Part shown: positions 8,702 to 43,526 of the stretch, piece by piece
How positions within the stretch are numbered: the stretch's first letter is position 1
Layout: each line of letters opens with the position of its first letter
Assembly: GCA_964384645.1 (NCBI GenBank)
Contig: CAYLKL010000007.1
Coordinates: 1 to 43,526 of the forward strand
Length of the DNA stretch: 43,526 bases
DNA from: an uncultured Candidatus Saccharibacteria bacterium
GTDB taxonomy: Bacteria; Patescibacteriota; Minisyncoccia; Phycocordibacterales; UBA9973
Direction of reading: 5' to 3'
Program-made: the position numbers and the translations under genes
Notes under the pieces: generated by a model
Database searches by the model: none
Told to the model about the DNA's origin: nothing
What the model saw: only the letters and a program-made list of their open reading frames with translations

Positions 8702-8767
8702 TATCTTGTGCTAAAGACCCTTATTTTCTTAATCCCTTTGATTCTTCGGAATTGAAGGGGTTTTTTA

Positions 8768-8803
8768 TTCTATGGAACTCTTCGCACGAATAGTTCCATA
8801 GAA
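8768..8803. repeat. Palindromic element P1 (TTCTATGGAACTCTTCG-CA-CGAATAGTTCCATAGAA), a member of a family with copies at 38285 and 38631
   Basis: Near-perfect 17 bp inverted repeat. It shares the core ATGGAAC..TTCGC.CGAAT.GTTCCAT with P2 and P3. Confidence 0.7.
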
Positions 8804-8816
8804 TCGTCGTTATTCA

Positions 8817-20468: not shown

Positions 20469-20996
20469 TTAAGACTCTTCCATTATTTTTTTGAATAATT
20501 GTGTCCATGTGACCATTTTTTTAATCAATAAATCAAATTCCACCTGAGTTATTTCTTGATCATTCAAAAATAATTCTTGGGCAGATATGATGTCTAAATT
20601 TATACTCTTTAAAGTAATTACTTTTTCAAAGTTAAATTGCGAATCCCTAACTGACACATTGTAAGTAGAATTATTCTCTTCCTGAGTTTGTTTTTTATCT
20701 AATAAAATATAGTAATCAATTAAAGAGTTCATATCTACTACTACATTCTTGTATTCCCTGATACACTTTTTGATAATCTGCGAAGAAGGGGAAGTTCCTA
20801 TACACTTATTATAATTAGCTCCAAGGTTATTTAGGCTTTTAATAATATTTTGCCCGCAATCTTCTTTTGCCATGGCAATTTCCAAAACAGAATTAAATTT
20901 AACTGTGTCATTTGGGTTATTTTCGATTTTCTGTATTTGAGCATTTAAAATGACGGGAAATAATGCAATAAGACCACTTAGGAAGATTTTTTTCAT
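20469..20996 (-). CDS. Hypothetical secreted protein (signal peptide, Cys-containing)
   Basis: N-terminal signal peptide MKKIFLSGLIALFPVILNAQ. A duplicated promoter module lies upstream. Confidence 0.55.
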   Translation of the reverse strand: MKKIFLSGLIALFPVILNAQIQKIENNPNDTVKFNSVLEIAMAKEDCGQNIIKSLNNLGANYNKCIGTSPSSQIIKKCIREYKNVVVDMNSLIDYYILLDKKQTQEENNSTYNVSVRDSQFNFEKVITLKSINLDIISAQELFLNDQEITQVEFDLLIKKMVTWTQLFKKIMEES

Positions 20997-21050
20997 TTTT
21001 ATAAGGTTTTAGTTTTGCTCACTTTACACTTCTAATATATATTTGTCAAA
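20994..21050 (-). promoter_or_regulatory. Promoter/5'UTR module, copy A. On the minus strand it reads TTGACA-17-TAAAGT. A near-identical copy is at 21531-21588.
   Basis: TTGACA corresponds to plus-strand 21044-21049 and TAAAGT to 21021-21026, with a 17 nt spacer. The core 21006-21050 matches 21544-21588 at 44 of 45 positions. Confidence 0.6.
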
Positions 21051-21272: not shown

Positions 21273-21535
21273 TCCAAAATATTTTTTTCGGCATAGTCAA
21301 TTAATTTTTCAATTTTTGATAAGTGGCAAAATTTAAAAGAATCATTTTGAAAATCACCCACCTCTAATTTAGAACAAGTGCAGTTGTGAAGATGTCCCAC
21401 TAAAAACTCAGCCCTTTCAGACAGGCTGGCTTTACCAGGGGTATGAATATTATTGCTAATGATTAAACTCTTCAATTCCGATATTATTCTGTTGATAACA
21501 TTAAAAGAGTATCCATTGAATATTTCTGTTTCCAT
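21266..21535 (-). CDS. Hypothetical 89 aa protein, Cys/His-containing
   Basis: It has its own terminator and duplicated promoter module B. No family was recognised. Confidence 0.5.
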   Translation of the reverse strand: METEIFNGYSFNVINRIISELKSLIISNNIHTPGKASLSERAEFLVGHLHNCTCSKLEVGDFQNDSFKFCHLSKIEKLIDYAEKNILEL

Positions 21536-21588
21536 TTTGTTAAGTTTTAGTTTTGCTCACTTTACACTTCTAATATATACTTGTCAAA
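21531..21588. promoter_or_regulatory. Promoter/5'UTR module, copy B. It lies in the 54 bp divergent spacer between gene 21266..21535 and uvrC and may act bidirectionally.
   Basis: Near-identical to copy A. The same TTGACA-17-TAAAGT arrangement appears on the minus strand. Confidence 0.55.
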
Positions 21589-28852: not shown

Positions 28853-31003
28853 ATGTTTGACCCAAACAAAATAACGTACTTTGGCGAAACTGATTTTCGT
28901 GGAGCCCGAACAAAGTTCGGCATTAAAGCGATTGATCGTACTCGACATATGTATGTAATCGGAAAGACGGGTATGGGTAAATCTACTATTTTGGAAAACA
29001 TGGCGATTCAAGATGTTCAAGGTGGTGAAGGTTTAGCGTTTATGGATCCACACGGAGGTTCAGCGGACAAACTCCTCGAATTTGTTCCAGAAGATCGAAT
29101 TCGTGATGTTATATATTACGCGCCTTTTGATTCTGAATTCCCAATCGCTTTCAATGTTCTAGAAGACGTTGGCGCAGACAAAAGACCTCTCGTTGCGTCA
29201 GGGCTAAAGAGTTCATTCAAAAAGTTTTGGGTGGATGCGTGGAGTGCTCGTATGGAATATATTTTAAACAATATTTTACTCGCGCTTTTGGAATATCCAG
29301 ACGCGACACTTCTTGGCGTAAACAGAATGCTTTCTGATAAAGATTACACAAAAAGAGTTGTTGAAAATGTACCCGACTCTTCTGTAAAAGCTTTTTGGGT
29401 GGATGAATTTGCAAAATATTCTGACAAGTATATGCAAGAAGCTGGAGCTGCTATTCAAAACAAAATTGGACAATTTGCTACAAATCCGCTCGTTCGAAAT
29501 ATTATCGGCCAACCAAAATCTTCTTTTGATATTCGTCGCATAATGGATGAAGGGAAAATTTTGATCATAAACTTGTCCAAAGGACGAATCGGAGAACAAA
29601 ACGCAAACCTTCTTGGTGGAATGCTTATTACAAAAATCTATTTGGCCGCGATGTCCCGAGCCGACGCAACTCCACAGGTTTTACAAGCTCTGCCAAACTT
29701 TTATTTATACGTCGACGAATTCCAATCTTTTGCGTCGGATTCTTTTGCAGACATTTTGTCTGAAGCTCGAAAATATAAATTAAATCTTATTATTGCTCAC
29801 CAATACGTAGAACAAATGTCAGAAGCCGTTCGAGCGGCAGTGTTTGGAAACGTTGGTTCTATGATTATTTACCGTGTTGGTTCATATGACGCACAAGTCT
29901 TTGAAAAAGAATTGGCACCAGCTTTCAACGCTGAAGATATTGTTAACTTGGGAAAATACCAAATGTATTTACGGTTGATGATAAATGGTGTTGGTTCGAA
30001 ACCTTTTTCAGGTACAGGTATGGCGCCAATAAAAGAATCACACCGATCTTTCGCAAAAGAAATTATTGAAAGTTCTAGATCTCAATTTGCTGCACCAAGA
30101 GCACAAGTCGAAGAAAACATTCGTGCTTGGTATAACGACGGTAATACTCCAAAAAAAGAACCGGCAACTGAGGGCTCACAATCGTACGAAAAACCAAACA
30201 AACCTTTTGAAAAAAGTTTTAAAGATTTTGGAAATAAAAAAGAATTTACTCCGTCTACAAATAATTCATTTCAAAATACAAACAGAGAACCTAGAAAAGA
30301 AAATTTTACACCAAGACCAAATCCGCCACAAAATCAAAATTATTCTGCCCCAAAGCCAGCTCAGCCTTGGCAAAATAATGCACCTAGACCTGCACAAGCT
30401 CCGGTAATTAATAATGTTGCGCCAACCGCCTCACCTGAGCCTGTTTTGAAACAAGAGATAGTTCAAAAACCAATTTCTAAACCAATTCCGCCAAAAACAC
30501 AAAATATTTTTGTTCCACCTAAAAAAGAAGAAGTAAAAATATCTCCATCATTACAGAAAATTTTATCAACTCTTGAGGGTGACAATCCAGAAAAAGTAGA
30601 ATTACCAATTGTAGAAGTTCCAAAAACAGAAATACAAAAACCATTTTCAACTTTTGTTAAAAAAGAACCGACAAGAGCTGTTACCGCAGAATCGAGCTCT
30701 CTTTTAAAGAGTGCTCTTGAGAAAGCTTTAGCTAGTAAGAATAAAGAAAGTGTTGAAACTTCAAAACCAGACACAGTAGAACCAAAAGTTCAACCAGAAA
30801 AACCAAAAGAAGCAATTGTAGATACTTCTGTTTATAGTCCAGTAGTGCCGGTTGTAGAAGATAAATCAATACCTGATATTCAAACACCTCCACCAACGCC
30901 TGAAATTAAAAAAGAAGAATACGCTTTACCAACACCACAAAAAGATGTTCCAGAAGATGTTTTAAGAGATTTGTTAAAAACTGAGAATGAGCCACAAGGT
31001 TAA
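28853..31003 (+). CDS. Soluble TraG/VirD4/TrwB-like (T4SS coupling-protein family) P-loop ATPase with a C-terminal Pro/Glu/Lys/Gln-rich low-complexity tail of about 300 aa
   Basis: Walker A GKTGMGKST, the DPHGG motif (DPKGE-like), and Walker B YLYVDEFQSF. There are no N-terminal TM helices. Confidence 0.5.
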   Translation: MFDPNKITYFGETDFRGARTKFGIKAIDRTRHMYVIGKTGMGKSTILENMAIQDVQGGEGLAFMDPHGGSADKLLEFVPEDRIRDVIYYAPFDSEFPIAFNVLEDVGADKRPLVASGLKSSFKKFWVDAWSARMEYILNNILLALLEYPDATLLGVNRMLSDKDYTKRVVENVPDSSVKAFWVDEFAKYSDKYMQEAGAAIQNKIGQFATNPLVRNIIGQPKSSFDIRRIMDEGKILIINLSKGRIGEQNANLLGGMLITKIYLAAMSRADATPQVLQALPNFYLYVDEFQSFASDSFADILSEARKYKLNLIIAHQYVEQMSEAVRAAVFGNVGSMIIYRVGSYDAQVFEKELAPAFNAEDIVNLGKYQMYLRLMINGVGSKPFSGTGMAPIKESHRSFAKEIIESSRSQFAAPRAQVEENIRAWYNDGNTPKKEPATEGSQSYEKPNKPFEKSFKDFGNKKEFTPSTNNSFQNTNREPRKENFTPRPNPPQNQNYSAPKPAQPWQNNAPRPAQAPVINNVAPTASPEPVLKQEIVQKPISKPIPPKTQNIFVPPKKEEVKISPSLQKILSTLEGDNPEKVELPIVEVPKTEIQKPFSTFVKKEPTRAVTAESSSLLKSALEKALASKNKESVETSKPDTVEPKVQPEKPKEAIVDTSVYSPVVPVVEDKSIPDIQTPPPTPEIKKEEYALPTPQKDVPEDVLRDLLKTENEPQG

Positions 31004-32414
31004 AATAATTTTATTTTTTGTTTTGTTTTTAACGCCCGTATTTGCGAGTGCGGCAGATGTGTCTATTAGTGAAATAATGTACGATCCTGCTGGGACCGAT
31101 ACTGGTCACGAATGGATTGAGATTTACAATTCAGGTAGTAGTGTAAGTTTAAGTGGTTGGAAATTTTTTGAAGAAGGTTCAAATCATGGGTTGGCGGAAT
31201 ACCAAGGCGGGTTAACACTTGGTGAAAATAGCTATGCAGTAATTGTTTCGGATCCAGTAAAATTTTTAGAAGATTATCCAGGATTTTCTGGGATCATTCT
31301 CGATTCTTCGTGGTCTTCTTTTAATAATACAGGCGAGAGTTTGGCGATAAAGAATAATACCAATAGTGTGGTTTTTCAAGTGAATTACACAGGTGGAGGG
31401 CAAGCTGCTGGAGATGGTAATAGTTTGCAGTTTTATTCAGGTGGTTGGACTGCAGGTATTCCAACTCCTGGGGCCCCTAATACTGATGAAGTAAATGAAG
31501 GGGACGATCAAAATGCTGGTGGAGACAATAATGAAGATGAGGAAGAAGAAGTTGAGACTCAAACTGTTTCTGGTGGCGAGAAAGAAGAGTTAGTAAAAAT
31601 TTACAATGGAACAACAATAAAAATACAAACTGATCAAAATGCTGTGGTTGGGGTTCCTTTTAAATTCAAGGTAAATGTTTTGGATGAATATGGAAGAGAG
31701 TTAAAAGTGGGAATTTTTAAATGGAATTTTGGTGACGGTATGACTTCGGAAGAAAAAGACGTAGTTGAATTTTTGCATATTTATAAAAAAGCAGGGAAGT
31801 ATGTTGCGTTCTTGGATTATTTTGAAAAATCAAGAAATGTTGTTCCAGACGCTACTTTAAAAGTTGTTGTTACAGTTATTGAGCCAGGGCTAAAGATACA
31901 AAGTATTGATAATGATAAAAATATAGAAATAAAAAATGAAGGATCGACAGAGCGAGATATTTCTGGGTGGATGTTATTTTTTGGAAATCAAATTTTTACG
32001 CTTCCTCCACACAGTATAGTTCTTGCGAAAAGTTCTATTTTTTTAAATCCTTTAGCTCATAATTTTTCAGGATTAAACTCAAATTCAAAGCTTGATTTAT
32101 ATTTACCAACCAATGAGTTCTACGCAACTTATCCTGAGCCAGTAAAAGTTGCACAGGCTTTTTCTTCTAGTACGACCCAAAGAGTTGTTAAAAGTAGTGT
32201 TGTTGAAAAAGAGAGTGTTGAAGTACCGAGTGATTCACAACAAGCTTCAGTTGTTCTGTCGCAAGACTCAAAAGATAACACCGGAGTAAATCCAAAAATA
32301 TTTATTGGTGCATTTGTTTTGTTTTGCCTTGTCGCAATGTTTGTTTTTTATCGTTTTGGTAAGAGTAAAAATACACAAGAAAACGAAGCGGATGATTACA
32401 AAATTTTGTCTTAA
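30987..32414 (+). CDS. Surface/secreted protein with lamin-tail-domain (LTD) modules and a PKD-like module, plus a C-terminal TM anchor
   Basis: Signal peptide; SEIMYDPAGTDTGHEWIEIYNSG (LTD); FKWNFGDGMTSEE..GKYVAFLD (PKD-like); a second LTD-like segment; and a C-terminal hydrophobic helix. Confidence 0.6.
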   Translation: MSHKVKIILFFVLFLTPVFASAADVSISEIMYDPAGTDTGHEWIEIYNSGSSVSLSGWKFFEEGSNHGLAEYQGGLTLGENSYAVIVSDPVKFLEDYPGFSGIILDSSWSSFNNTGESLAIKNNTNSVVFQVNYTGGGQAAGDGNSLQFYSGGWTAGIPTPGAPNTDEVNEGDDQNAGGDNNEDEEEEVETQTVSGGEKEELVKIYNGTTIKIQTDQNAVVGVPFKFKVNVLDEYGRELKVGIFKWNFGDGMTSEEKDVVEFLHIYKKAGKYVAFLDYFEKSRNVVPDATLKVVVTVIEPGLKIQSIDNDKNIEIKNEGSTERDISGWMLFFGNQIFTLPPHSIVLAKSSIFLNPLAHNFSGLNSNSKLDLYLPTNEFYATYPEPVKVAQAFSSSTTQRVVKSSVVEKESVEVPSDSQQASVVLSQDSKDNTGVNPKIFIGAFVLFCLVAMFVFYRFGKSKNTQENEADDYKILS

Positions 32415-34512: not shown

Positions 34513-34517
34513 AGACT

Positions 34518-34994
34518 ATGTTTAATGCAGAAAATCCGCAGGATGTAAATCACTTAAACTCCTCAAAAGAGAATCTTGTAGGTAAGTTAGAAGACCTTAA
34601 AAATAGAAAATCAGAAATAACTCACTTTTATGATGAGTTTAGATTTGCTTATTTTAATTCAGATCAGGACAAAGAAGAAATTTCTAAAAAGAGAGAAGAG
34701 CTTTTAAATTCATTGTTGCAAAATAAAGAACTGGAGAATATAAATGAAGAAATTCATAAACTTAACAGAGAAATAATGTTAAGACACAGAAAGGACCTGG
34801 CGACTAATTATTTAGTAACACAAATGTTTCTAAGCGATCTTTACCAAAAGATGTTTGATCTTCCAGAGGGTGACGTAAGGTTGAAAGAGATAGAAGATAA
34901 GATTGTTGAATTTGAAAATTTGCTCAAAAATGATATTAAAAGTTTAAACTCGGAGGGGTTATCTGAGGATCTTGTAAAAAATGGAGGGTATTAA
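34518..34994 (+). CDS. Hypothetical coiled-coil protein
   Basis: ORF only; charged heptad-like content. Confidence 0.45.
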   Translation: MFNAENPQDVNHLNSSKENLVGKLEDLKNRKSEITHFYDEFRFAYFNSDQDKEEISKKREELLNSLLQNKELENINEEIHKLNREIMLRHRKDLATNYLVTQMFLSDLYQKMFDLPEGDVRLKEIEDKIVEFENLLKNDIKSLNSEGLSEDLVKNGGY

Positions 34995-35016
34995 CTAGAT
35001 TTTTATTGAAAAGTTA

Positions 35017-35042
35017 ATAAAAAAAGGAGCGCTATGCGCTCC
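35017..35042 (-). terminator. Intrinsic terminator for minus-strand gene 35067..35360
   Basis: On the minus strand, GGAGCGC-ATA-GCGCTCC followed by TTTTTTTATT. Confidence 0.65.
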
Positions 35043-35066
35043 TCTCGGGGGTTAGGGTTCACTGTA

Positions 35067-35360
35067 TTATGTTGTTTGAGCCTCAGGCTCTTTTTGTTTC
35101 TTTTTAACGACAGGTGCCGGGTCTTCGTATGTGGCGATTATAGCTTCTGCGTATTTTGCATATTTTTCCGGCAGTAGTGTTTCTTTTTGTCTCCAGGCCT
35201 TCATTGCTTTTTGGTAATCAGATATTGGTGAAAAATGTTTACCGTTGTGTTTAAGATGTTGGCCAGTTTGTGGATCCATCTTGAAACAGGTTTCTTTGTT
35301 GGTTCCTGGGACGGTTGCTCTTATGAGCAGGTTTTCGTTGGCTGATTTGATACAGTGCAT
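35067..35360 (-). CDS. Hypothetical 97 aa protein under a consensus promoter
   Basis: ORF with its own consensus promoter and terminator. No family was recognised. Confidence 0.5.
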   Translation of the reverse strand: MHCIKSANENLLIRATVPGTNKETCFKMDPQTGQHLKHNGKHFSPISDYQKAMKAWRQKETLLPEKYAKYAEAIIATYEDPAPVVKKKQKEPEAQTT

Positions 35361-35392
35361 ATTTAGTTATTTTAAGGTTAAACTTGTTGACG

Positions 35393-35421
35393 ATTATATA
35401 CACTTGTTTATAAATTGTCAA
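35393..35421 (-). promoter_or_regulatory. Consensus sigma-70 promoter on the minus strand, TTGACA-17-TATAAT, driving gene 35067..35360
   Basis: Perfect -35 and -10 hexamers with a 17 nt spacer. Confidence 0.65.
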
Positions 35422-35423
35422 AA

Positions 35424-35452
35424 TAAAAAAGCCCTGTATTCTCGGGGCCTTT
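35424..35452 (-). terminator. Intrinsic terminator for minus-strand gene 35454..36086
   Basis: On the minus strand, GGCCCCGAGAATACAGGGC followed by TTTTTTATTTT. Confidence 0.55.
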
Positions 35453-35453
35453 C

Positions 35454-36086
35454 TTAATTGAAAATTTTTTTAAGCAGAGAGGAAATGAACGTTTTTTTTG
35501 GGTTCAAAATTCTTTCCCGTTTCTTCAGAATATATTCATAGGCATATTGTGTCTGTTCTCTCGAAATATATCCGGGTGTTTCAATATGTGTTTGGCTTAC
35601 GTACTTCTTTTCTTCGTGTAATCCAAAAGCCATCACAAATAAATCCGTCGCCACCTCAGATTCCCTGTGTTTGTCGAAAGTAGAGTAGAGGGTTAAATGA
35701 GCTAATTCATGGCAAAGTGTTGTTATGAAAAATTCAAATTTTTCATAGCGTTCTGGATGAATACAAATCTCAAACCGTATTCTTTTAAATGCCTCTGTGT
35801 AAAAAAGTACCGGTTTGTACTTGTTTAATGTTATATACCCCTTACAAAGTGGGTCTTGTAGCGTACTGGTATTCTTCTGTATTAATCTTACATTAGCCGG
35901 AATATTTACTTTTCTTAGGAAATCAACAATTATTTCTTTGTGTAGATTTCTTTCGAACCAAATCCTGTAGGCTTTATTATAAGATAATAAGTCAAAGTTG
36001 AATTTTTGAACAAAGTGATCGATAACACTTTCAATGTACTTTTTATCTTGCTGGGTCATAGACTGAGTTGTTTTAAGGTTTGGCAT
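35454..36086 (-). CDS. HExxH-motif putative Zn metallohydrolase (SprT/DUF45-like), divergent from the next gene
   Basis: CHELAHL...H motif. Call by motif only. Confidence 0.45.
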   Translation of the reverse strand: MPNLKTTQSMTQQDKKYIESVIDHFVQKFNFDLLSYNKAYRIWFERNLHKEIIVDFLRKVNIPANVRLIQKNTSTLQDPLCKGYITLNKYKPVLFYTEAFKRIRFEICIHPERYEKFEFFITTLCHELAHLTLYSTFDKHRESEVATDLFVMAFGLHEEKKYVSQTHIETPGYISREQTQYAYEYILKKRERILNPKKTFISSLLKKIFN

Positions 36087-36129
36087 ATTTTAGCATACAT
36101 TATAGTTTTGTCAAACAAACAAAACAAAA

Positions 36130-36138
36130 TGTTATAAT
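36130..36138 (+). promoter_or_regulatory. Extended -10 promoter TGTTATAAT for the DUF45 gene
   Basis: Identical nonamer to the one at 28836. Confidence 0.5.
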
Positions 36139-36147
36139 CCCAATATC

Positions 36148-36669
36148 TTGGAATACACAATAAAGAAAAATAAGCTTTCAAAAGGGATGCGAATAACCAT
36201 AAAAGAAGGTGGGGAAGTTTTGGTTACAATACCAAGACGATTGCCGAAATATTTTGCCCACCGTTTTGTTGAAAGTAAAAAAGATTGGATTGTCGAAATG
36301 CAGGCAAAGGCAAAATCTCGTCCGCAAAAAATCTTGGCACATTATTCGGCAAAAGATTTCAAAGAACACAAAGAAAGCGCACTTGTTTTGATAGAAAACC
36401 GAATTGCTCATTTTAATAAATTTTATAAATTTGAAATTTCCAAAGTCGTCGTTCGCAATCAAAAAACAAGATGGGGAAGTTGTTCGGGAAAAAAGATTCT
36501 AAATTTCAATTACAAACTTGTTTTCTTACCACTTCCACTCGCAGACTATATTGTCGTCCATGAACTTTGCCACCTAGCCCAAATGAACCACGGCCCAAAA
36601 TTCTGGGCATTAGTAGCTCAGCAAATCCCGGATTATAAGGAACGAAGAAAACAAATAAGACTTTTTTAG
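36148..36669 (+). CDS. YgjP/DUF45-family metal-dependent hydrolase (HExxH..NH..FW). The likely start is the ATG at 36187.
   Basis: WGSCSGKKILNFNYKLVFLPLPLADYIVVHELCHLAQMNHGPKFWALV is the family hallmark. Confidence 0.75.
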   Translation: MEYTIKKNKLSKGMRITIKEGGEVLVTIPRRLPKYFAHRFVESKKDWIVEMQAKAKSRPQKILAHYSAKDFKEHKESALVLIENRIAHFNKFYKFEISKVVVRNQKTRWGSCSGKKILNFNYKLVFLPLPLADYIVVHELCHLAQMNHGPKFWALVAQQIPDYKERRKQIRLF

Positions 36670-36677
36670 GTTATGTG

Positions 36678-36706
36678 TTGACATAATAGTATTTTGCTGG
36701 TAATGT
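36678..36706 (+). promoter_or_regulatory. Sigma-70 promoter TTGACA-17-TAATGT for the SPFH gene
   Basis: Hexamers at 36678-36683 and 36701-36706. Confidence 0.6.
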
Positions 36707-36756
36707 ATCGCCAGTATATTTGTTCATTAAAATCACATCTAAAAACTAAAAAACTT

Positions 36757-38139
36757 ATGAAAAATCTTATTGTGTTGAGTATTTTGCCTGATTTATCAGG
36801 TTCAGTGTCCGGGTTGTCAGCAGGTGTATTTGTTGTCATCGTGGCCATCATGGCCTTTCTTTACAGAACTGTTGTACCTACAAACATGGTGCATATTGTT
36901 CAATACAGAAAGAAAACAATCTCGTATGGAACAGGTCAGTCTGCTGGTAATGTATATTACAGATGGCCTGCATGGATTCCTTTTTTTGGGGTAACTTCTA
37001 TACATTTACCTGTTAGCAACTTCAATTTAAACTTCAAAGATTATGAAGCTTATGACAAAGACCGAGTACCTTTTGTTCTAGATCTAACGGCTTTCTTTCG
37101 TATTACTGATACAAATATCGCCGCTCAGCGTATTTCAAGTAAGACGGAGTTGGACAATCAGTTAACGTCTATTTTGCAAGGTGCAGTAAGAAAAATTCTT
37201 GCTTCGCACGACATAAATGCAATCATGACGGATCGCGCAACTTTTGGTAAACAATTTACAGAAGAGGTTCAACAAGAACTTCAAAACTGGGGTGTTGAAC
37301 CGGTAAAGAATATTGAACTTATGGATATTCGGGACGCAAAAGGATCATCGGTAATTGCAGACATTATGGCAAAGAAGAGTTCCCAAATAAATATGGAGAG
37401 CCGTATGGAAGTTGCTAAAAATAATAAAGAAGCAGAAATTGCAGAGGTTGTAGCTGCACGTGAAGTCGATGTAGAAAAACAAAATGCACTTGAGGTTGTC
37501 GGTAAACGAACTGCAGAAAAAGACAAGGCGGTAGGTATTGCTAAAGAGGTTTCTGAGCAAGAAATAAAAAATGAGCAAGCCAAAACTGCAGAAAAAGACA
37601 AGACTGTTGAGAAGATTAAATTGGTTCGTGATGCTGAAAATGCTAAAGAAGCAGCTATTGTTGAAGCGGATCAGGAAAAAGAAACAACAATCAGAATTGC
37701 TGATGGTAAACTTCAGGCCACAAAACTTGAAGCTCAGGGAATTGAAGCAAAAGGTAGGGCAGAAGGAGAAGCTGAAAAAGCAAAACAACTCGCTCCTGTT
37801 GAGGCTCAAATTAAATTAGCCAAAGAGATTGGTGGCAATCATAATTATCAAAGTTATCTGGTGTTACTTGAAGCTACTAAGGCGTATACTACAGTTGGTA
37901 CTGAACAAGCTAAAGCATTGCAAGATGCAGAAGTGAAAATCATTGCCAATGGTGGAAACGCTCAGGATGGAGTGAAAAATGCTCTTGATCTTTTTAGCAC
38001 AAAAGGAGGTTTCTCTATTGCTAGCATGCTTGAAGCATTGGAGGCAACACCGCAAGGGCAAAAGCTCGTTGATAGTCTTGGTGATTTGTTTGCTAAAAAA
38101 GAAAACACTGAAAACACTGATAGTAAAAAAGAAGCTTAA
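36757..38139 (+). CDS. SPFH/band-7 (flotillin-like) membrane protein (ATG at 36757; the track starts it at TTG 36694)
   Basis: N-terminal TM, an SPFH domain, then a long Ala/Glu/Lys-rich coiled coil. Confidence 0.8.
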   Translation: MKNLIVLSILPDLSGSVSGLSAGVFVVIVAIMAFLYRTVVPTNMVHIVQYRKKTISYGTGQSAGNVYYRWPAWIPFFGVTSIHLPVSNFNLNFKDYEAYDKDRVPFVLDLTAFFRITDTNIAAQRISSKTELDNQLTSILQGAVRKILASHDINAIMTDRATFGKQFTEEVQQELQNWGVEPVKNIELMDIRDAKGSSVIADIMAKKSSQINMESRMEVAKNNKEAEIAEVVAAREVDVEKQNALEVVGKRTAEKDKAVGIAKEVSEQEIKNEQAKTAEKDKTVEKIKLVRDAENAKEAAIVEADQEKETTIRIADGKLQATKLEAQGIEAKGRAEGEAEKAKQLAPVEAQIKLAKEIGGNHNYQSYLVLLEATKAYTTVGTEQAKALQDAEVKIIANGGNAQDGVKNALDLFSTKGGFSIASMLEALEATPQGQKLVDSLGDLFAKKENTENTDSKKEA

Positions 38140-38153
38140 TTAGTTGCAGTGAT

Positions 38154-38188
38154 CAAAGTCGACCCTTAGGGTCGACTTTTTTTATTTT
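38154..38188 (+). terminator. Strong intrinsic terminator
   Basis: AGTCGACCC-TTA-GGGTCGACT followed by TTTTTTTATTTT. Confidence 0.8.
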
Positions 38189-38201
38189 GCAAAAACTCAT
38201 A

Positions 38202-38256
38202 GCCCTTCAAATCCCGGATTATAAGGAGAGAAGAAGGCAAATAAGACTTTATTAAT
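38202..38256 (+). pseudogene. 3'-terminal remnant (17 codons plus stop: ALQIPDYKERRRQIRLY*) of a DUF45/YgjP-like gene, directly repeating the 3' end of 36148..36669
   Basis: About 47 of 55 nt are identical to 36614-36668, and the reading frame is preserved (QIPDYKERRKQIRLF* vs QIPDYKERRRQIRLY*). Confidence 0.65.
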
Positions 38257-38284
38257 ATTAGACATGCTTTTTTTGACTTCATTT

Positions 38285-38316
38285 TACACGGAACTATTCG
38301 CTCGAATGGTTCGGTG
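38285..38316. repeat. Palindromic element P2 (ACACGGAACTATTCG-CT-CGAATGGTTCGGTGT), 35 bp upstream of the arsR-like start
   Basis: Inverted repeat sharing the core with P1 and P3. Confidence 0.7.
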
Positions 38317-38351
38317 TAAGAAATAAAAATAAAAAGGTGTAAAATATTTGT

Positions 38352-38612
38352 ATGAAGCAATATGAAAAAATATTGAAAGCACTTGCCAACAAAAGAAGGT
38401 TGGAAATAATTAAATATTTAAAAATCAACAAAGAAGCGACGGTCGGCGATCTAGCAGACAAAATAAAAGTATCTATAAAGGCCACATCCAAACATTTAGC
38501 GATTCTCGCAAATGCTGGCGTTTTGGAAAGAGAGCACCGTAGTTCTTTTATTCTTTATTCGCTATCGCGCGAACTAGAGCCGGTCGCAAAAGCAGTTATT
38601 TTTTTGGTTTAA
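38352..38612 (+). CDS. ArsR/SmtB-family HTH transcriptional regulator
   Basis: RLEIIKYLKINKEATVGDLADKIKVSIKATSKHLAILANAGVL is a winged-HTH ArsR signature. Confidence 0.8.
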   Translation: MKQYEKILKALANKRRLEIIKYLKINKEATVGDLADKIKVSIKATSKHLAILANAGVLEREHRSSFILYSLSRELEPVAKAVIFLV

Positions 38613-38630
38613 TTTATTTAGTTGATTTAG

Positions 38631-38668
38631 TATCCATGGAACCATTCGCTCGAATGGTTCCATGGATA
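38631..38668. repeat. Palindromic element P3 (TATCCATGGAACCATTCG-CT-CGAATGGTTCCATGGATA), a perfect 18 bp inverted repeat
   Basis: Perfect palindrome immediately after the arsR-like stop. Confidence 0.75.
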
Positions 38669-38675
38669 TAATGGA

Positions 38676-38861
38676 TTGGGTGGAATGGTGGGGGAAGGAA
38701 GGGGTGTGAATATAGAAAAAGTGCGAGCTTTAGCGGATGGATCTTCAATGCTTGGGCAAATGGCGCTAGGGCAGGGTCTAATAGACCAAATCGGCGATTA
38801 TGCGGATGTGAAGGAATATATAAAAGGGAAATACAATATCGAACCGGAGGTTTGTTGGTAG
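38676..38861 (+). pseudogene. 3' remnant of an sppA-like (S49 signal peptide peptidase) gene, GC-elevated
   Basis: The translation VRALADGSSMLGQMALGQGLIDQIGDYADV matches the conserved SppA C-terminus (..GRVWTG.QAL.LGLVDELGG..). There is no upstream catalytic portion; the frame abuts palindrome P3. Confidence 0.55.
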
Positions 38862-38916
38862 GGGGTGGAATTGAAAAAAGTGTGGTTTTGTGGGATAGTT
38901 CTTAGTATTAAGCACT

Positions 38917-41586
38917 ATGAATCTAGTCCAACTACAAGAAAATCTTGAGAATTTAAGTCAAAACTTTTCAGAGCAAACGTTCATTTTTGATTTGCTTTCA
39001 GTGTATGAGTTGCCTAAAAGTACTATTTCTTTACTTTCTAAAAATCCATACAAATTATCTGGTAGAGATGATCAGATTATCCTCAAGAACAAAGTACTTT
39101 TTCATATAACAACACTCGAGGAAGATGAGCATGTTGCGATCGATGCACTTGCAAAAGATAAGTTCTCATACAAGTTTAACCCTCGATTTATTATCGTTAC
39201 GGATTTCGTAACGTTTTTGGCTATTGATACAAAAACAAAAGAAACACTCGATATTGAAATTAAAGATCTCGGCAAGCATTACGCTTTCTTTTTGCCTTGG
39301 TGCGGAATGGAAAAATCACAGCATGTAAATGAAAATCCTGCCGATATCCGTGCCGCCTACAAAATGGATAAGCTATATCAGGCAATTGTTACTGATGATC
39401 CTGATTACTATAAAAACAATTGCCATGATCTAAACATATTTCTCTCAAGACTTCTGTTCTGCTTCTTTGCGGAAGATACAGGTATTTTTCCTAAAGTTGG
39501 AATGTTTACCAACTCTGTGACTTCTCATACTCACGAAGACGGTAGCGAAATGGATACCTATTTTTCTACACTATTTGATGTTTTGAATACAAAAGATTCA
39601 GATCGATCAAAGTTTGCATCTCATTTTCTAGAATTTCCCTATGTAAACGGAGGTCTTTTTGAAACCAATATTAAGCTACCAACATTTACAGTGAACTCAC
39701 GGAAGTTGATTATTGAATGTGGAAAGCTGAATTGGGATTCTATCAATCCCGATATTTTCGGATCTATGATTCAGGCTGTTGTTCATCCAGGACAGCGTGA
39801 GAATCTTGGAATGCACTACACCTCCGTTCCAAACATAATGAAAGTGATTGAACCTCTCTTTTTAAATGATCTCTATACGGAACTAGAAAATTCAAAGAAT
39901 GATATCAAGAAACTCACAAAACTTCGTGAGCGAGTTTCAAAAATAAAAATCTTTGATCCAGCTTGTGGGTCAGGTAACTTTTTGATTATTTCTTATAAGG
40001 AACTTTCTAAGCTTGAATCAAAGATCATTAGTTATGCCAATGATCTTGGCCATCAGATGATGCCCTATTCGGGTGTATCGCTAAACTCATTTTATGGAAT
40101 TGAGATAGACGATTTTGCACATGAGATAGCTCGACTTTCATTATGGTTGGCACAACACCAGATGAACCAATACTTTGACGGAATGTTTGGAATCATGAAA
40201 GCAACACTCCCTCTTAAAGAAAGTGGAAAGATTGTATGTGCCAATGCAACACGGGCTACTTGGGAAGAAGTTTGTCCTCGCAAGGATCAAGTTGTGGGAG
40301 AATATGAAATCTATGTAGTGGGTAATCCACCATATCTTGGATCTAGAAACCAAGAAGATGAGCAAAAGGAAGATCTAAAAAATCTGTTTGTGAATGACTA
40401 CAAGAGTCTCGACTATATATCAGCTTGGTTTTATAAAGGTGCAAAATATGTTTCAGGTTATGAAAATATTAAACTAGCTTTTGTTTCGACAAACTCGATT
40501 TCTCAAGGAGAACAAGTTTCATTATTGTGGCCAAGAATCTTAGGTGAAGGTGTTGAAATATTTTTTGCGTATCAGTCTTTTAAATGGAAAAATCTTGCAA
40601 AAGGAAATGCAGGAGTTACTTGTGTAATTATTGGATTATCTAACCCTTCAAATCACCCTAAGTATATTTTCAATGATAACCAGTACTCTTTAGTTAAAGA
40701 AATTAATCCATATCTAAAAAATACAACAGTAATAAATGTTAGTAAGCGAAGTAGTCCCATTTCTGAATTACCAGAAATGACATATGGGAATATGCCTCTT
40801 GAAGGGAATTTTTTAAAACTAGATTTATCTGAAAAAGTTGAGTTAATAAATAAATATCCAAATTCAGCAAAATTTATTAGACCACTGATTGGTGGTAGTG
40901 AATTTATGAATGGGAATAGTAGATATTGTCTATGGATAGAAGATGCTGATTTAAATGAAGTAAATAAAATTCCAGATATAAAAAAGCGAATAGAGAGTGT
41001 TCGAAAATTTAGAGAGACTGGCGGAGATGTCGCAAGAACCTTAGCAGACAGATCTCACCAGTTTAGATATCGACATGAAGCTAAAAATCACTTCATAATC
41101 GTACCTTGCACATCTTCAGAAAATAGAGATTATATGCCTTGCGGTGTTTTTAATTCTAAATTCATCAGCCTTAACTCACTTCAAGTGATTTATGATTCAG
41201 ATCTGTATGTTTTTGGTGTATTAGTTTCTAAAATGCACATGACATGGGTGCGTGCTGTGGGAGGCAGACTGAAAACAGACCTAAGATACTCTTCTGCATT
41301 GTGTTACAACACTTTTCCTTTTCCAGATATAACGCCTAAACAAAAAGAATCACTTACTACCCATGTATACAATATTCTGGAAGAGCGCGAGAAATATCCA
41401 AGTAAAACAATGGCTGATTTATATGATCCAGACAAGATGCCAGATGGATTGCGGGAAGCTCACAAATATTTAGATCAAGCCATAGATCAGATATACCGAA
41501 GCAAACCGTTTGAAAGTGACGAAGATCGACTAGCTTACTTGTTCAAACTTTACGAAGAGATGATTACTAGAAAAACTAACCAATAA
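38917..41586 (+). CDS. MmeI-family Type IIL restriction-modification enzyme. A single polypeptide carries an N-terminal PD-(D/E)xK nuclease, a helical spacer, a gamma-class N6-adenine methyltransferase and a C-terminal target-recognition domain.
   Basis: Nuclease motif IIVTDF..LAIDTK (D96, D104, K106); LLFCFFAEDTGIF; FPYVNGGLFE; HYTSVPNIMKVIEPLFL; SAM motif I IFDPACGSGNFL; motif IV VVGNPPY; FVSTNSISQGEQVSLLWP; VPCTSSENRDYMPCG. These blocks are collinear with MmeI. Confidence 0.85.
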   Translation: MNLVQLQENLENLSQNFSEQTFIFDLLSVYELPKSTISLLSKNPYKLSGRDDQIILKNKVLFHITTLEEDEHVAIDALAKDKFSYKFNPRFIIVTDFVTFLAIDTKTKETLDIEIKDLGKHYAFFLPWCGMEKSQHVNENPADIRAAYKMDKLYQAIVTDDPDYYKNNCHDLNIFLSRLLFCFFAEDTGIFPKVGMFTNSVTSHTHEDGSEMDTYFSTLFDVLNTKDSDRSKFASHFLEFPYVNGGLFETNIKLPTFTVNSRKLIIECGKLNWDSINPDIFGSMIQAVVHPGQRENLGMHYTSVPNIMKVIEPLFLNDLYTELENSKNDIKKLTKLRERVSKIKIFDPACGSGNFLIISYKELSKLESKIISYANDLGHQMMPYSGVSLNSFYGIEIDDFAHEIARLSLWLAQHQMNQYFDGMFGIMKATLPLKESGKIVCANATRATWEEVCPRKDQVVGEYEIYVVGNPPYLGSRNQEDEQKEDLKNLFVNDYKSLDYISAWFYKGAKYVSGYENIKLAFVSTNSISQGEQVSLLWPRILGEGVEIFFAYQSFKWKNLAKGNAGVTCVIIGLSNPSNHPKYIFNDNQYSLVKEINPYLKNTTVINVSKRSSPISELPEMTYGNMPLEGNFLKLDLSEKVELINKYPNSAKFIRPLIGGSEFMNGNSRYCLWIEDADLNEVNKIPDIKKRIESVRKFRETGGDVARTLADRSHQFRYRHEAKNHFIIVPCTSSENRDYMPCGVFNSKFISLNSLQVIYDSDLYVFGVLVSKMHMTWVRAVGGRLKTDLRYSSALCYNTFPFPDITPKQKESLTTHVYNILEEREKYPSKTMADLYDPDKMPDGLREAHKYLDQAIDQIYRSKPFESDEDRLAYLFKLYEEMITRKTNQ

Positions 41587-41590
41587 TATT

Positions 41591-43526
41591 ATGAAAACAA
41601 TTCAAGTAGCAGAAGCAACATACGCACAAACAGGACAAAGCACCAAGCTTAATGAGTTTGGTATGCGTGAAATGCAGGCAAAAGCATTTGAGAAAAAAGG
41701 TGCTCAATACCTCCTATTGAAAGCACCACCTGCATCTGGAAAATCTAGAGCTTTAATGTTTCTTGCTTTAGACAAGCTGACTAATCAAGGAATCAAAAAG
41801 GTTATTGTTGCTGTCCCTGAAAAATCTATTGGTGGATCTTTCGGTGAGACCAATTTAACTCAAGGTGGCTTCTTTGCTGACTGGAAACCCAACGATAATT
41901 ACAACCTATGTACTCCAGGTCTCGATAACGCCAAGGGTAAGGTTGAGGCGTTTAAGAACTTTATGGATAACGATGAGAAGATTCTTATCTGCACTCACGC
42001 TACTCTTCGTTTTGCATGTGAACAAATCGAGGATACGAAGTTTAATGACATGCTTATTGCTATAGATGAGTTCCATCATGTTTCTGCTGATAAAGAAAGC
42101 AGTATTTTAGGACGAGTTCTACACGGAATAATGACGAACTCAAACGCACACATTATTGCTATGACGGGGTCGTATTTCCGTGGTGACGGTGTAGCTGTTT
42201 TGTTACCACAAGATGAGGCTAAGTTTCAAAAAGTAACTTACAACTACTACCAGCAGTTGAACGGCTATACATATTTAAAAACCTTGGGTATTGGATACCA
42301 CTTTTATCAAGGTAAATATACTTCGGCGATTGCTGAGGTTCTTGATACAAACAAGAAAACGATTTTACACATTCCAAATGTAAACTCTGGAGAATCTACC
42401 AAAGATAAACTCAATGAAGTTGATTTGATCTTGGATATTATCGGTGAGGTAGACCATCAAGATCGTGAGACTGGTGTTATCTATGTAAAGCGTGACGGTG
42501 ACGGAAAAATACTCAAGGTAGCAAATCTTGTAGATGATTCTGTTGATCGAGACAAGATTTCAAACTATCTCCGTACTATGAAAAAGGAAGAGGACATGGA
42601 TATTATTATTGCTCTTGGTATGGCGAAAGAAGGTTTTGACTGGCCGTACTGCGAACACGCTTTGACTGTCGGCTATCGTAGTTCGCTTACTGAGATCATT
42701 CAGATCATCGGTCGCTGTACTCGTGACAGTGCAAACAAAACCCATGCACAATTCACTAATCTTATTGCTCAACCTGATGCAAAAGACGGCGAGGTTAAAG
42801 TGTCAGTAAACAACATGCTCAAGGCGATCACTTGTTCTTTGCTTATGGAACAAGTTATGGCTCCGCACTATAACTTCAAACCACGATTTCCAAATGATGA
42901 CACCACTTTTACTCCAGGTGAAATAAAGGTAAATGGATTCAAAGCACCAAGTACGGATCGTGTTCGAGAAATTATTGAATCTGATATCAACGATCTCAAA
43001 GCTTCAATTCTTCAAGATGATCAAATGATTAAAGCGTTGCCTGGAAATGTTGATCCCGAGGTAATCAACAAAGTAATGATCCCAAAGATCATTCAGATGA
43101 AATACCCTGATCTAACAGATCTTGAAGTAGAGGAAGTTCGTCAACACGTTGTTGTTGATTCTGTAATTAAGAACGGAGAAATCAAAGAAGTTGGTGATAA
43201 GAAATTTGTTCGTATGGCAGGTCAGTTTGTGAATATTGATGATCTAAATATTGACCTTATCGACAGTATCAATCCGTTCCAAGAAGCTTTTGAGATTCTC
43301 TCAAAATCAGTGACTTCAAGTATCCTTAAGGTTATTCAAGATACAATTGATTCATCTCGAATCGAGATGACACCAGAAGAAGTTAAGATCCTATGGCCTA
43401 AAGCTAAGGAGTTCACAATACAAACAGGTCGAAAGCCAGACATATCTTCGTCTGACCCCCTTGAGAAGCGTTTGGCGGAAGCGGTACTGTACTTGAAGAA
43501 GCTCAAGGCTGAACAAATTCAAAATT
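41591..43526 (+). CDS. SF2 (ResIII/DEAH-type) helicase, 3'-truncated by the window end (at least 645 aa). It starts 4 nt after the MmeI-like stop and is absent from the ORF track because no stop lies within the window.
   Basis: Motif I LLKAPPASGKS, motif II IAIDEFHH, motif III IAMTGSY, motif VI QIIGRCTR. The frame is open from the ATG at 41591 to the window end. Confidence 0.75.
   Translation, partial: MKTIQVAEATYAQTGQSTKLNEFGMREMQAKAFEKKGAQYLLLKAPPASGKSRALMFLALDKLTNQGIKKVIVAVPEKSIGGSFGETNLTQGGFFADWKPNDNYNLCTPGLDNAKGKVEAFKNFMDNDEKILICTHATLRFACEQIEDTKFNDMLIAIDEFHHVSADKESSILGRVLHGIMTNSNAHIIAMTGSYFRGDGVAVLLPQDEAKFQKVTYNYYQQLNGYTYLKTLGIGYHFYQGKYTSAIAEVLDTNKKTILHIPNVNSGESTKDKLNEVDLILDIIGEVDHQDRETGVIYVKRDGDGKILKVANLVDDSVDRDKISNYLRTMKKEEDMDIIIALGMAKEGFDWPYCEHALTVGYRSSLTEIIQIIGRCTRDSANKTHAQFTNLIAQPDAKDGEVKVSVNNMLKAITCSLLMEQVMAPHYNFKPRFPNDDTTFTPGEIKVNGFKAPSTDRVREIIESDINDLKASILQDDQMIKALPGNVDPEVINKVMIPKIIQMKYPDLTDLEVEEVRQHVVVDSVIKNGEIKEVGDKKFVRMAGQFVNIDDLNIDLIDSINPFQEAFEILSKSVTSSILKVIQDTIDSSRIEMTPEEVKILWPKAKEFTIQTGRKPDISSSDPLEKRLAEAVLYLKKLKAEQIQN

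What the first reader, a model, noticed from the sequence alone, without database searches (positions are those of the whole stretch)
36600..38260. Flotillin-like SPFH gene cassette bounded by about 55 bp direct repeats derived from the 3' end of the DUF45 gene
The last 17 codons plus stop of the YgjP/DUF45 gene (36614-36668) recur at 38202-38256. About 47 of 55 nt are identical, with the same frame and a TAA versus TAG stop. The second copy sits immediately after the SPFH gene's terminator. The segment between the repeats is about 1.59 kb and carries its own sigma-70 promoter (TTGACA-17-TAATGT), the SPFH gene, and a strong terminator. This is the signature of an element that integrated into the 3' end of a gene while supplying a replacement 3' end, leaving the displaced original end as a remnant, in the manner of 3'-end-targeting integrative elements. 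No integrase is present in the window.
Basis: seen in the sequence. Interest (0 to 1): 0.6.

Follow-up and report, generated by a model that had tools for sequence, protein, structure and literature searches.

The report
Young SPFH gene insertion behind DUF45
A 1.6-kb single-gene cassette encoding a flotillin-like membrane protein has recently been spliced into the last codons of a neighbouring gene in an uncultured ultra-small (CPR) bacterium, and sister strains still show the unoccupied site; it is a clean but fairly ordinary example of gene gain by recombination, with no sign of its own integrase.

Summary
A 55-nt direct repeat (36614-36668 and 38200-38254, 47/55 identical, in frame, TAG versus TAA) brackets a self-contained SPFH module of promoter, gene and terminator. 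About 3e-10 such pairs are expected by chance.

The predicted empty site exists. Four independent contigs carry one DUF45 3' end running straight into the DNA that follows copy 2: L016, L102 and L103 from the same species, and L017 from a sister species. An independent occupied strain (L009) shows both junctions, so this is not an assembly artefact. No relative has a second full-length DUF45.

Copy 2 is the 3' end of a real, diverged DUF45 allele of the ALQ type, as in L103. The two copies are chimeric in the attL/attR manner.

The module is ten times less diverged between the occupied strains than the adjacent host DNA (0.53% versus 5.4%), so the insertion is young.

The window has no integrase. 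No other DUF45 locus carries a remnant, and SPFH homologues in four other CPR contexts lack flanking repeats.

Best reading: a passive cassette captured by homologous or illegitimate recombination at the DUF45 3' end and reshuffled within a recombining population. A trans-acting integrase (CIME-like) is not excluded. Modest interest; a new member of a known kind.

The parts
36148..36669 (+). DUF45/YgjP-like metallopeptidase gene (173 aa), the target gene. Its last ~145 nt (36526-36668) are an imported, diverged allelic tract.
   Evidence: PF01863 E=1.5e-42. Versus the empty-site allele there are 8 differences in 36148-36525 and 15 in 36526-36668, Fisher p=1.2e-4, with 15 synonymous and 4 non-synonymous codons.
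36614..36668 (+). Left repeat copy (attL-like): the functional 3' end of DUF45, ending TTT TAG. The last 5 nt and the following GTTATGTG are found only in occupied strains.
36670..38192 (+). SPFH module proper: 8-nt linker, promoter, leader, gene and terminator. It is homologous as a unit to the L010 module.
   Evidence: L010 5924-6029 matches window 36678-36785 (76%) and the terminators are homologous. Only 0.53% divergence between window and L009.
36678..36706 (+). Putative sigma-70 promoter: TTGACA, 17 nt, (TGg)TAATGT.
   Evidence: Read from the sequence. The -35 box is conserved in L010. Not scored by the consensus scan. RpoD is present in the window.
36757..38139 (+). Flotillin-like SPFH/Band 7 gene (460 aa): N-terminal TM segment, SPFH domain and a long E/A/K-rich coiled-coil tail. 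This is the cargo.
   Evidence: PF01145 E=1.4e-20. 99% identical to P0121; many homologues are named flotillin by JGI. Distant PDB matches to QmcA and stomatin.
38155..38189 (+). Intrinsic terminator of the SPFH gene.
38193..38255 (+). Right repeat copy (attR-like): non-functional remnant of the last 20 codons plus stop of a DUF45 allele. 38193-38207 is ALQ-type (junction-linked). 38208-38255 is identical to the empty-site allele.
   Evidence: The ALQ-type natural allele is seen in L103/P0253.
38256..38380 (+). Host DNA that directly follows the DUF45 stop codon in empty-site strains.
   Evidence: L016 is 98.8% identical over 38208-38380. L017, L102 and L103 show the same continuity.

Best explanation
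The 1586-nt segment is a passive single-gene cassette: an SPFH/flotillin-like gene with its own promoter and terminator. It was inserted into the last ~20 codons of the chromosomal DUF45 gene of a Paceibacteria-like CPR bacterium by the cell's general recombination machinery, not by an element-encoded integrase.

The incoming DNA carried a short stretch of a diverged DUF45 3' end next to the SPFH module. Recombination within that ~55-60-nt homology produced the observed structure. [quoted passage not shown]

The result is an intact, chimeric DUF45 with a new stop codon (TTT TAG), then the module, then a dead copy of the gene's last 20 codons, then the original downstream DNA.

Shown: (1) the insertion polymorphism; (2) the chimeric attL/attR-like repeats; (3) the allelic origin of the remnant; (4) the youth of the module; (5) the absence of a recombinase in the window.

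Inferred: the recombination pathway, DNA uptake by natural competence, and the later allelic replacement of both flanks, with tracts forced to end at the repeats because strains with the empty site have no homology inside the module.

The direct repeats also allow precise RecA-mediated loss that restores an in-frame DUF45.
For: Empty sites in four independent assemblies: L016, L102, L103, and the sister species L017. The 91%-identical homologue L003 also lacks SPFH. Both L017 and L003 have DUF45 followed by sppA, so empty is the ancestral state.

Relative to the empty haplotype, L009 differs by one contiguous foreign block. The block starts at TTTAG|GTTATGTG and ends inside the right copy. The 55 nt to its left and the DNA to its right are identical to L016. 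This is the geometry of a single crossover with a circle, or an equivalent permuted segment.

The remnant differs from copy 1 almost only at synonymous or conservative positions. It matches a natural ALQ-type allele (L103/P0253) apart from third-codon positions and one V/I.

The interior of the repeats is a mosaic of population alleles: the GAACGA/GAGAGA and AAA/AGG sites give a four-gamete pattern. In the window, a 10%-diverged tract reaches 145 nt into DUF45, beyond the repeat.

Module divergence between the occupied strains is 0.53% against 5.4% in adjacent host DNA (p=5e-12).

The window has no integrase. No second DUF45 C-terminal copy occurs in the 80 DUF45 loci fetched from the genome collection. 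SPFH homologues in four other contexts lack flanking repeats (for L010 and L011).

The region from 34.5 kb rightwards is a mosaic of gene replacements among strains.

Literature: CPR bacteria (Saccharibacteria) are naturally competent and integrate DNA by homologous recombination (PMC10187176/PMC10633639 abstracts). HFIR is defined in PMC3240628. Patchy donor segments after transformation are reported in PMC13344027.
Against: The longest perfectly identical runs between the two allele types are only 11-20 nt. That is short for efficient RecA-dependent crossover, so the primary event would have been rare.

Both occupied haplotypes can be reconciled with one fixed crossover position (in CAAATAAGACTT), which is also what a site-specific recombinase would give.

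The ultimate origin of the DUF45 3' fragment next to the SPFH module is unexplained. No donor genome with an intact DUF45 ending ...LF*, followed by the module and no remnant, was found.

Only two occupied haplotypes are available. Only 43.5 kb of the genome was examined for recombinases.
Confidence: 0.55

Rival explanations
1. CIME-like relic or satellite of a site-specific integrative element. An ICE, IME or phage-like element whose attP contained a DUF45 3' end integrated by its tyrosine or serine recombinase. It then lost everything but the SPFH gene and its attL/attR, or the cassette is moved in trans by an integrase encoded elsewhere.
For: The architecture is exactly attL (B-O-P') and attR (P-O-B'), with the target gene's 3' end restored. 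Junction-linked edges (TTTAG|GTTATGTG and ...GCAAAAA|CTCATAGCCCTT) are the same in both occupied strains, which is compatible with one fixed crossover in CAAATAAGACTT. A VirD4-like coupling protein lies 6 kb upstream. CIMEs are a described category (PMC5704250).
Against: There is no recombinase in 43.5 kb. The segment between the repeats holds nothing beyond the SPFH module, which is homologous end to end with a repeat-less module in L010, so no decayed element genes remain. No other DUF45 locus has a remnant or an adjacent integrase. The SPFH gene and the repeat core have no relatives in the viral contig collection. The VirD4-like gene is conserved in the empty-site strain L102, so it is not linked to the cassette.
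Confidence: 0.22
2. Paralogue decay. The ancestor carried two tandem DUF45 genes flanking SPFH. The downstream paralogue was deleted down to its last 20 codons, and the 'empty' strains arose by recombination between the paralogues.
For: The remnant is a bona fide diverged coding allele with mostly synonymous or conservative differences. Recombination between direct repeats would regenerate an in-frame single gene.
Against: No relative shows a second full-length DUF45. The sister-species locus L017 and the 91%-identical homologue L003 are empty, with sppA directly after DUF45. The module is far younger than the flanks. The remnant begins exactly where homology of the SPFH module to L010 ends, as expected for an insertion junction rather than a random deletion end point.
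Confidence: 0.08
3. Long target-site duplication. The SPFH module inserted by a mechanism that duplicated ~60 nt of target, and the copies then diverged by mutation.
For: Direct repeats immediately abut the module on both sides.
Against: Differences are not spread as drift would give. In the window, 7 of 12 nt differ at the left edge of copy 2, while the next 48 nt are identical to the empty-site allele. The changes are synonymous or conservative and match natural alleles. Adjacent DNA is 98.8% identical to the empty strain.
Confidence: 0.03
4. Assembly or binning artefact: a chimeric contig joining reads from two strains at a shared DUF45 3' end.
For: Short-read metagenome assemblies can collapse or mis-join at repeats. 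Several Logan contigs break inside the region.
Against: L009, from an unrelated run, spans both junctions in one contig. L001/L002 cover the left junction and L008 the right junction at 100% identity.
Confidence: 0.02

Closest known systems
CIMEs (cis-mobilizable elements) and ICE/IME integration into the 3' end of protein-coding or tRNA genes (e.g. the ICESt1/ICESt3 fda site; reviewed in PMC5704250)
   Same: An integrase-less segment bounded by direct repeats made of the target gene's 3' end. The target gene stays intact through a supplied replacement end, and the displaced end survives as a remnant. An empty site with one copy exists in relatives.
   Different: No evidence that an integrase ever acted. 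There are no relic element genes, only one cargo gene. The repeats are 85% rather than ~100% identical, with mosaic interiors. No related integrase-bearing elements at this site were found in other genomes.
Homology-facilitated illegitimate recombination and short-homology Campbell integration during natural transformation (Acinetobacter, S. pneumoniae; PMC3240628, PMC3410848)
   Same: Foreign DNA is anchored by a stretch of diverged homology in a resident gene. No element-encoded enzyme is needed. Insertion comes with a partial duplication or deletion at the junction. The host phylum is naturally competent (PMC10633639).
   Different: Classical HFIR usually deletes recipient DNA and is documented in the laboratory with anchors of at least ~150 bp. 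Here the product is a neat in-frame duplication of ~60 nt, and the event is inferred from natural population data only.
Stand-alone bacterial flotillin-like SPFH genes (YqiK/FloT type) and SPFH-NfeD/S49 gene pairs
   Same: The cargo has the N-terminal TM, SPFH and coiled-coil architecture. It is 57-59% identical to SPFH proteins of Aeromonas. In L097 a 72% homologue is followed by an S49/NfeD1b-like gene.
   Different: In the window the neighbouring S49 (sppA) gene is only a 61-aa remnant, so no functional pair exists. No NfeD gene lies within the cassette.

Membership tests
Site-specific integrative element / CIME | Flanked by attL and attR direct repeats containing the target gene's 3' end | tested here: met
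   55-62-nt repeats, chimeric in the B-O-P' / P-O-B' manner.
Site-specific integrative element / CIME | Empty attB with a single copy in related genomes | tested here: met
   L016, L102, L103 and L017.
Site-specific integrative element / CIME | Derivation from, or mobilisation by, an element encoding a cognate integrase with the same site specificity | tested here: not met
   No recombinase in the window. No integrase-bearing element or remnant at the 80 DUF45 loci from the genome collection or the other DUF45 loci fetched. Nothing related in viral contigs. The rest of the genome could not be examined.
Site-specific integrative element / CIME | Identical core at both ends with a fixed crossover position | tested here: inconclusive
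   The copies are 85% identical. Junction-linked edges are shared by both occupied strains, but the interiors are mosaic. Compatible with either a fixed crossover plus later allelic exchange or variable crossovers.
Recombination-generated insertion (HFIR / Campbell-type via short homology) | Homologous anchor in a resident gene, with donor-type polymorphisms extending from the junction into that gene | tested here: met
   A 10.5%-diverged, mostly synonymous tract at 36526-36668 against 2.1% upstream in the gene (8 differences in 378 nt, 36148-36525).
Recombination-generated insertion (HFIR / Campbell-type via short homology) | Dependence on RecA and DNA uptake; microhomology at the illegitimate joint | not testable with these tools
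   No donor sequence is available to define microhomology. Competence is known only for cultivated Saccharibacteria (PMC10633639).
SPFH/Band 7 (flotillin-like) proteins | SPFH domain above the Pfam gathering threshold, with an N-terminal membrane anchor and a C-terminal coiled coil | tested here: met
   PF01145, 74.5 bits against a cut-off of 23.6. Hydrophobic N-terminus and an E/A/K-rich tail are seen in the translation.
YgjP/DUF45 (M48-like, SprT-like) metallopeptidase | PF01863 match with the HExxH motif | tested here: met
   146.4 bits. HELCH is present in the translation.

The most novel reading that the evidence does not exclude
The cassette may represent a class of integrase-less 'portable homology-arm' cassettes in naturally competent CPR bacteria. 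These would be small gene modules that carry a ~60-nt copy of a conserved gene's 3' end. They would circularise by recombination between their flanking repeats and re-integrate by RecA into any sufficiently similar allele, without disrupting the target gene. The adjacent ArsR gene, bounded by a duplicated palindrome that is single-copy in L017, would be a second instance at the same hotspot.
Probability: 0.12. Interest if true: 0.65.

Novelty: new member of a known kind. Interest (0 to 1): 0.33.

Why it matters
It gives a nucleotide-resolution, population-supported example of how a genome-reduced, uncultured CPR bacterium gains a gene. There are occupied and empty alleles from six independent assemblies. 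The gene comes with its own promoter and terminator and leaves the target gene intact. The insertion sits in a locus that also swaps restriction-modification systems. If the recombination-only reading is right, short gene-end homologies suffice for cassette capture in these organisms. That is relevant to how CPR pangenomes turn over and to designing integration constructs for the few cultivable members. Biologically, the cargo is a flotillin-like membrane scaffold whose presence varies between co-existing strains.

Tried and rejected
(1) Flanking repeats around SPFH homologues in other contexts (L010, L011): none.

(2) Scan of the 103 loci fetched by that point (the 80 DUF45 loci from the genome collection among them) for a second DUF45 C-terminal copy: only L009, the rest noise.

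(3) Viral contig scans for the repeat core and for SPFH relatives: three chance 20-mer hits in an unrelated phage gene and no SPFH relatives.

(4) PADLOC: neither SPFH nor DUF45 matches a known defence-system component.

(5) Base composition: no signature for the cassette.

(6) A hairpin overlapping the SPFH -10 box and leader looked conserved with L010, but it is not significant (z=-1.3).

(7) Donor search: contexts of five SPFH homologues at 71-99% identity. Only the close strain L009 (99% homologue) repeats the window's arrangement; the four at 71-74% have no DUF45 upstream.

(8) NCBIfam gave no equivalog for SPFH or DUF45.

(9) An attempt to explain both occupied haplotypes by one circle with different crossover points failed at 4 nt. 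A single insertion followed by allelic exchange of the flanks fits better.
Full report
**1. The observation**

The window carries a 55-nt direct repeat at 36614-36668 and 38200-38254. It is 47/55 identical with a start-to-start spacing of 1586 nt.
- Copy 1 is the last 17 codons plus part of the stop codon of a YgjP/DUF45 gene (36148-36669; PF01863, E=1.5e-42).
- Copy 2 lies about 14 nt after the terminator stem of the SPFH gene (stem 38155-38179, -22.8 kcal/mol, z=-6.6).
- In register, copy 2 reads IALQIPDYKERRRQIRLY* against VAQQIPDYKERRKQIRLF* for copy 1.
- About 3e-10 pairs this similar are expected by chance in the window.
- Homology ends abruptly on both sides.
- The proposed promoter (TTGACA at 36678-36683, 17 nt, TAATGT, preceded by TGn) is in the sequence. 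Its -35 box is conserved in a homologous module elsewhere. Its -10 is too weak to be scored by the consensus scan.

**2. Context**

The window is chromosomal DNA of a Patescibacteria (CPR) bacterium.
- Its DUF45 relatives are all CPR. The closest named genome is a Candidatus Paceibacterota MAG.
- The first 28 kb encode core genes: DnaG, RpoD, S2, EF-Ts, MreBC, Tgt, TruB, UvrABC and Ddl.
- None of the complete ORFs scanned against Pfam (all those of at least 100 aa), nor the helicase-like ORF running off the right end (read directly), is a recombinase.
- Downstream of the finding lie an ArsR-family HTH gene, a 61-aa remnant of sppA (S49) and an MmeI-type IIG restriction-modification gene.

**3. 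Empty sites**

A junction pattern (end of copy 2 plus host DNA) retrieved L016 from the metagenome collection. In L016 an intact DUF45 runs through one repeat copy straight into window 38208-38380. It is 95.7% identical to window 36070-36668 and 98.8% identical to 38208-38380, and it has no SPFH.

Three further empty sites were found:
- L102 and L103, from other samples of the same species.
- L017, a sister species at about 82-85% nucleotide identity.

In L017, and in L003 (DUF45 91% identical), DUF45 is followed by a full-length sppA-type S49 peptidase. The ancestral order is therefore DUF45-sppA, and the empty state is ancestral.

The occupied state is confirmed independently by L009, from another sequencing run. 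It spans both junctions at 97.8% identity. No relative carries a second full-length DUF45, and none of the 80 DUF45 loci from the genome collection has a second C-terminal copy.

**4. Anatomy of the junctions**
- All five empty alleles end TAT TAA followed by TATTAGA(C/T).
- Both occupied strains end TTT TAG followed by GTTATGTG and then the TTGACA -35 box.
- The right copy in both occupied strains begins CTC ATA GCC CTT (L I A L). This is an 'ALQ-type' edge unlike the AQQ-type of L016, L102 and L017. It resembles the natural allele in L103/P0253 (...ALVALQIPDYKERRKQIRLY).
- The L009 remnant differs from that natural allele only at third-codon positions and one V/I.
- So the remnant is the end of a genuine, selected DUF45 allele. 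It is not drifted duplicate DNA, which rules out a long target-site duplication.

In L009 everything left of ...GACTTT in the left copy, and everything right of it in the right copy, is identical to L016. The foreign DNA is therefore one contiguous block that starts and ends at the same relative position of the repeat. That is the geometry of a single crossover with a circle carrying 'H' + module' (attL = B-O-P', attR = P-O-B').

In the window the right copy switches from ALQ-type to the empty-site sequence within CAAATCCCGGA. The left copy carries a third allele (GAA CGA ... AAA) that is part of a 10.5%-diverged, mostly synonymous tract reaching 145 nt into DUF45 (Fisher p=1.2e-4).

**5. The module**

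Comparison with L010 (SPFH 74% identical) shows homology from the -35 box (36678) through the terminator to about 38192. The module proper exactly fills the space between the two DUF45 ends.

SPFH homologues of 71-74% identity sit in four unrelated CPR contexts:
- after an HI0933-like gene (L010);
- after TatD (L011-L015);
- after DUF1905 and before an S49/NfeD1b-like gene (L097);
- before the S19 ribosomal operon (L098).

None has flanking repeats. The gene is thus a frequently relocated stand-alone unit, but it is not itself a repeat-bounded element. It has no compositional signature and no match to known defence systems.

**6. Age and spread**

Divergence between the two occupied strains by segment:

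| Segment | Divergence |
|---|---|
| Left repeat | 8.2% |
| Module | 0.53% (8 of 1523 nt) |
| Right repeat | 6.4% |
| Adjacent downstream host DNA | 5.4% (33 of 610 nt) |

- The module-versus-downstream contrast has p=5e-12.
- Synonymous changes: 3 in 461 SPFH codons against 11 in 87 ArsR codons.
- The insertion is therefore much younger than the population's allelic diversity.
- The simplest history is one insertion, after which both flanks exchanged alleles with the wider, mostly empty-site population. Such tracts must stop at the repeats, because empty-site DNA has no homology inside the module.
- This accounts for the mosaic interiors of the repeats and for the four-gamete pattern at the AAA/AGG and GAACGA/GAGAGA sites.
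- Repeated independent integrations of a circulating cassette are not excluded.

**7. Mechanism**

I favour capture by general recombination (confidence 0.55): either a Campbell-type crossover of a circular fragment, or homology-facilitated illegitimate recombination of a linear one. Reasons:
- There is no recombinase in the window.
- There are no relic element genes in the segment.
- No family of elements or remnants targets DUF45.
- Allelic tracts extend beyond the repeat.
- The surrounding region is a mosaic of gene replacements among strains.
- CPR bacteria are known to be naturally competent and to recombine incoming DNA (PMC10187176 and PMC10633639).
- HFIR and patchy transformation outcomes are documented (PMC3240628, PMC13344027).

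Against this reading:
- The identical runs are short (11-20 nt).
- Both haplotypes are compatible with a single fixed crossover point.
- The DUF45 fragment beside the module has no identified origin.

The main rival (0.22) is a CIME-like structure, meaning attL/attR retained and integrase lost or acting in trans (definition in PMC5704250). Paralogue decay (0.08), a long target-site duplication (0.03) and assembly artefact (0.02) are disfavoured by the data above.

**8. Comparison and verdict**

The structure works like an attL/attR-bounded integrated element at a gene's 3' end. Membership of the site-specific family fails on the one defining feature that could be tested, a cognate integrase or related integrase-bearing elements. 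The mechanistic analogy remains unproven.

This is a well-documented but fairly ordinary insertion polymorphism: a new member of a known kind, interest about 0.33. The most novel reading not excluded is a class of integrase-less cassettes that carry a portable gene-end homology arm. It is hinted at by the neighbouring ArsR gene, which is bounded by a duplicated palindrome that is single-copy in L017.

Noticed in passing
window 38284-38319 and 38630-38668 (flanking ArsR gene 38352-38612); L017 3583-3622: The ArsR/SmtB-type HTH gene sits between two long, near-perfect palindromes (-19.5 and -29.8 kcal/mol, 348 nt apart). The sister species L017 has a single palindrome with the left flank of the first and the right flank of the second, and no ArsR gene. 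This is a second repeat-bounded cassette right next to the SPFH one. In L009 both hairpin loops read CGAGCG, while in the window both read CGCTCG (a concerted change).
   Followed up: partly
window 8767-8804: A third member of the same palindrome family (ATGGAAC..TTCG...CGAA..GTTCCAT) lies in an intergenic region far from the finding. This suggests a small REP-like palindromic repeat family in this genome.
   Followed up: no
window 38676-38861; L017 3717-4601; L003 637-1347: The 61-aa ORF is the 3' remnant of an sppA-type S49 peptidase gene (68% identical to the C-terminus of the full 294-aa L017 gene; TIGR00706 above cut-off). The full gene directly follows DUF45 in L017 and L003. The strains of the window's species whose contigs reach it (window, L009, L103) keep only the remnant.
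   Followed up: partly
window 38865-43526; L009 2259-3842; L017 4632-8680: Immediately after the sppA remnant, the strains carry different restriction-modification systems. The window has an MmeI-type IIG enzyme plus a helicase-like ORF running off the end. L009 has a type I HsdM. L017 has a D12 methylase, GmrSD and another methylase. This is an R-M swap hotspot anchored on the sppA 3' end.
   Followed up: partly
window 34514-36069; L016 726-2231; L102 8417-9922: Upstream of DUF45 the strains are also mosaic. The 210-aa gene (35454-36086, weak SprT-like) and the 158-aa gene (34518-34994) are replaced in L016 and L102 by unrelated ORFs, including a 220-aa membrane protein on the other strand. 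L103 keeps the 210-aa gene; its counterpart of the 158-aa gene region shows no match to the window. Flanking DNA is 98-99% identical.
   Followed up: partly
L097 1503-3870: A 72%-identical SPFH homologue is directly followed by an S49/NfeD1b-like gene that is 46% identical to the sppA-like gene following DUF45 in L017. In two lineages SPFH therefore lies upstream of this protease family, the classical SPFH-NfeD pairing. In the window, however, the protease is already a remnant.
   Followed up: partly
window 20991-21050 and 21529-21588: A 60-nt direct repeat (90% identical, 538 nt apart) lies in the intergenic region between a 175-aa ORF on the minus strand and the UvrC-like gene. It may be a duplicated promoter region or another small insertion.
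   Followed up: no
window 28853-32414: A VirD4/TrwB-like coupling protein is followed by a lamin-tail/PKD-domain protein. Both are conserved in the empty-site strain L102, so they are not linked to the cassette. They probably belong to the CPR type IV secretion system described in PMC12102498.
   Followed up: no
protein P0250 (DUF45 cluster member): One population allele ends ...QQIPIFKRRKKEISLF instead of ...QQIPDYKERRKQISLY. It looks like a frameshifted C-terminus in exactly the repeat region.
   Followed up: no
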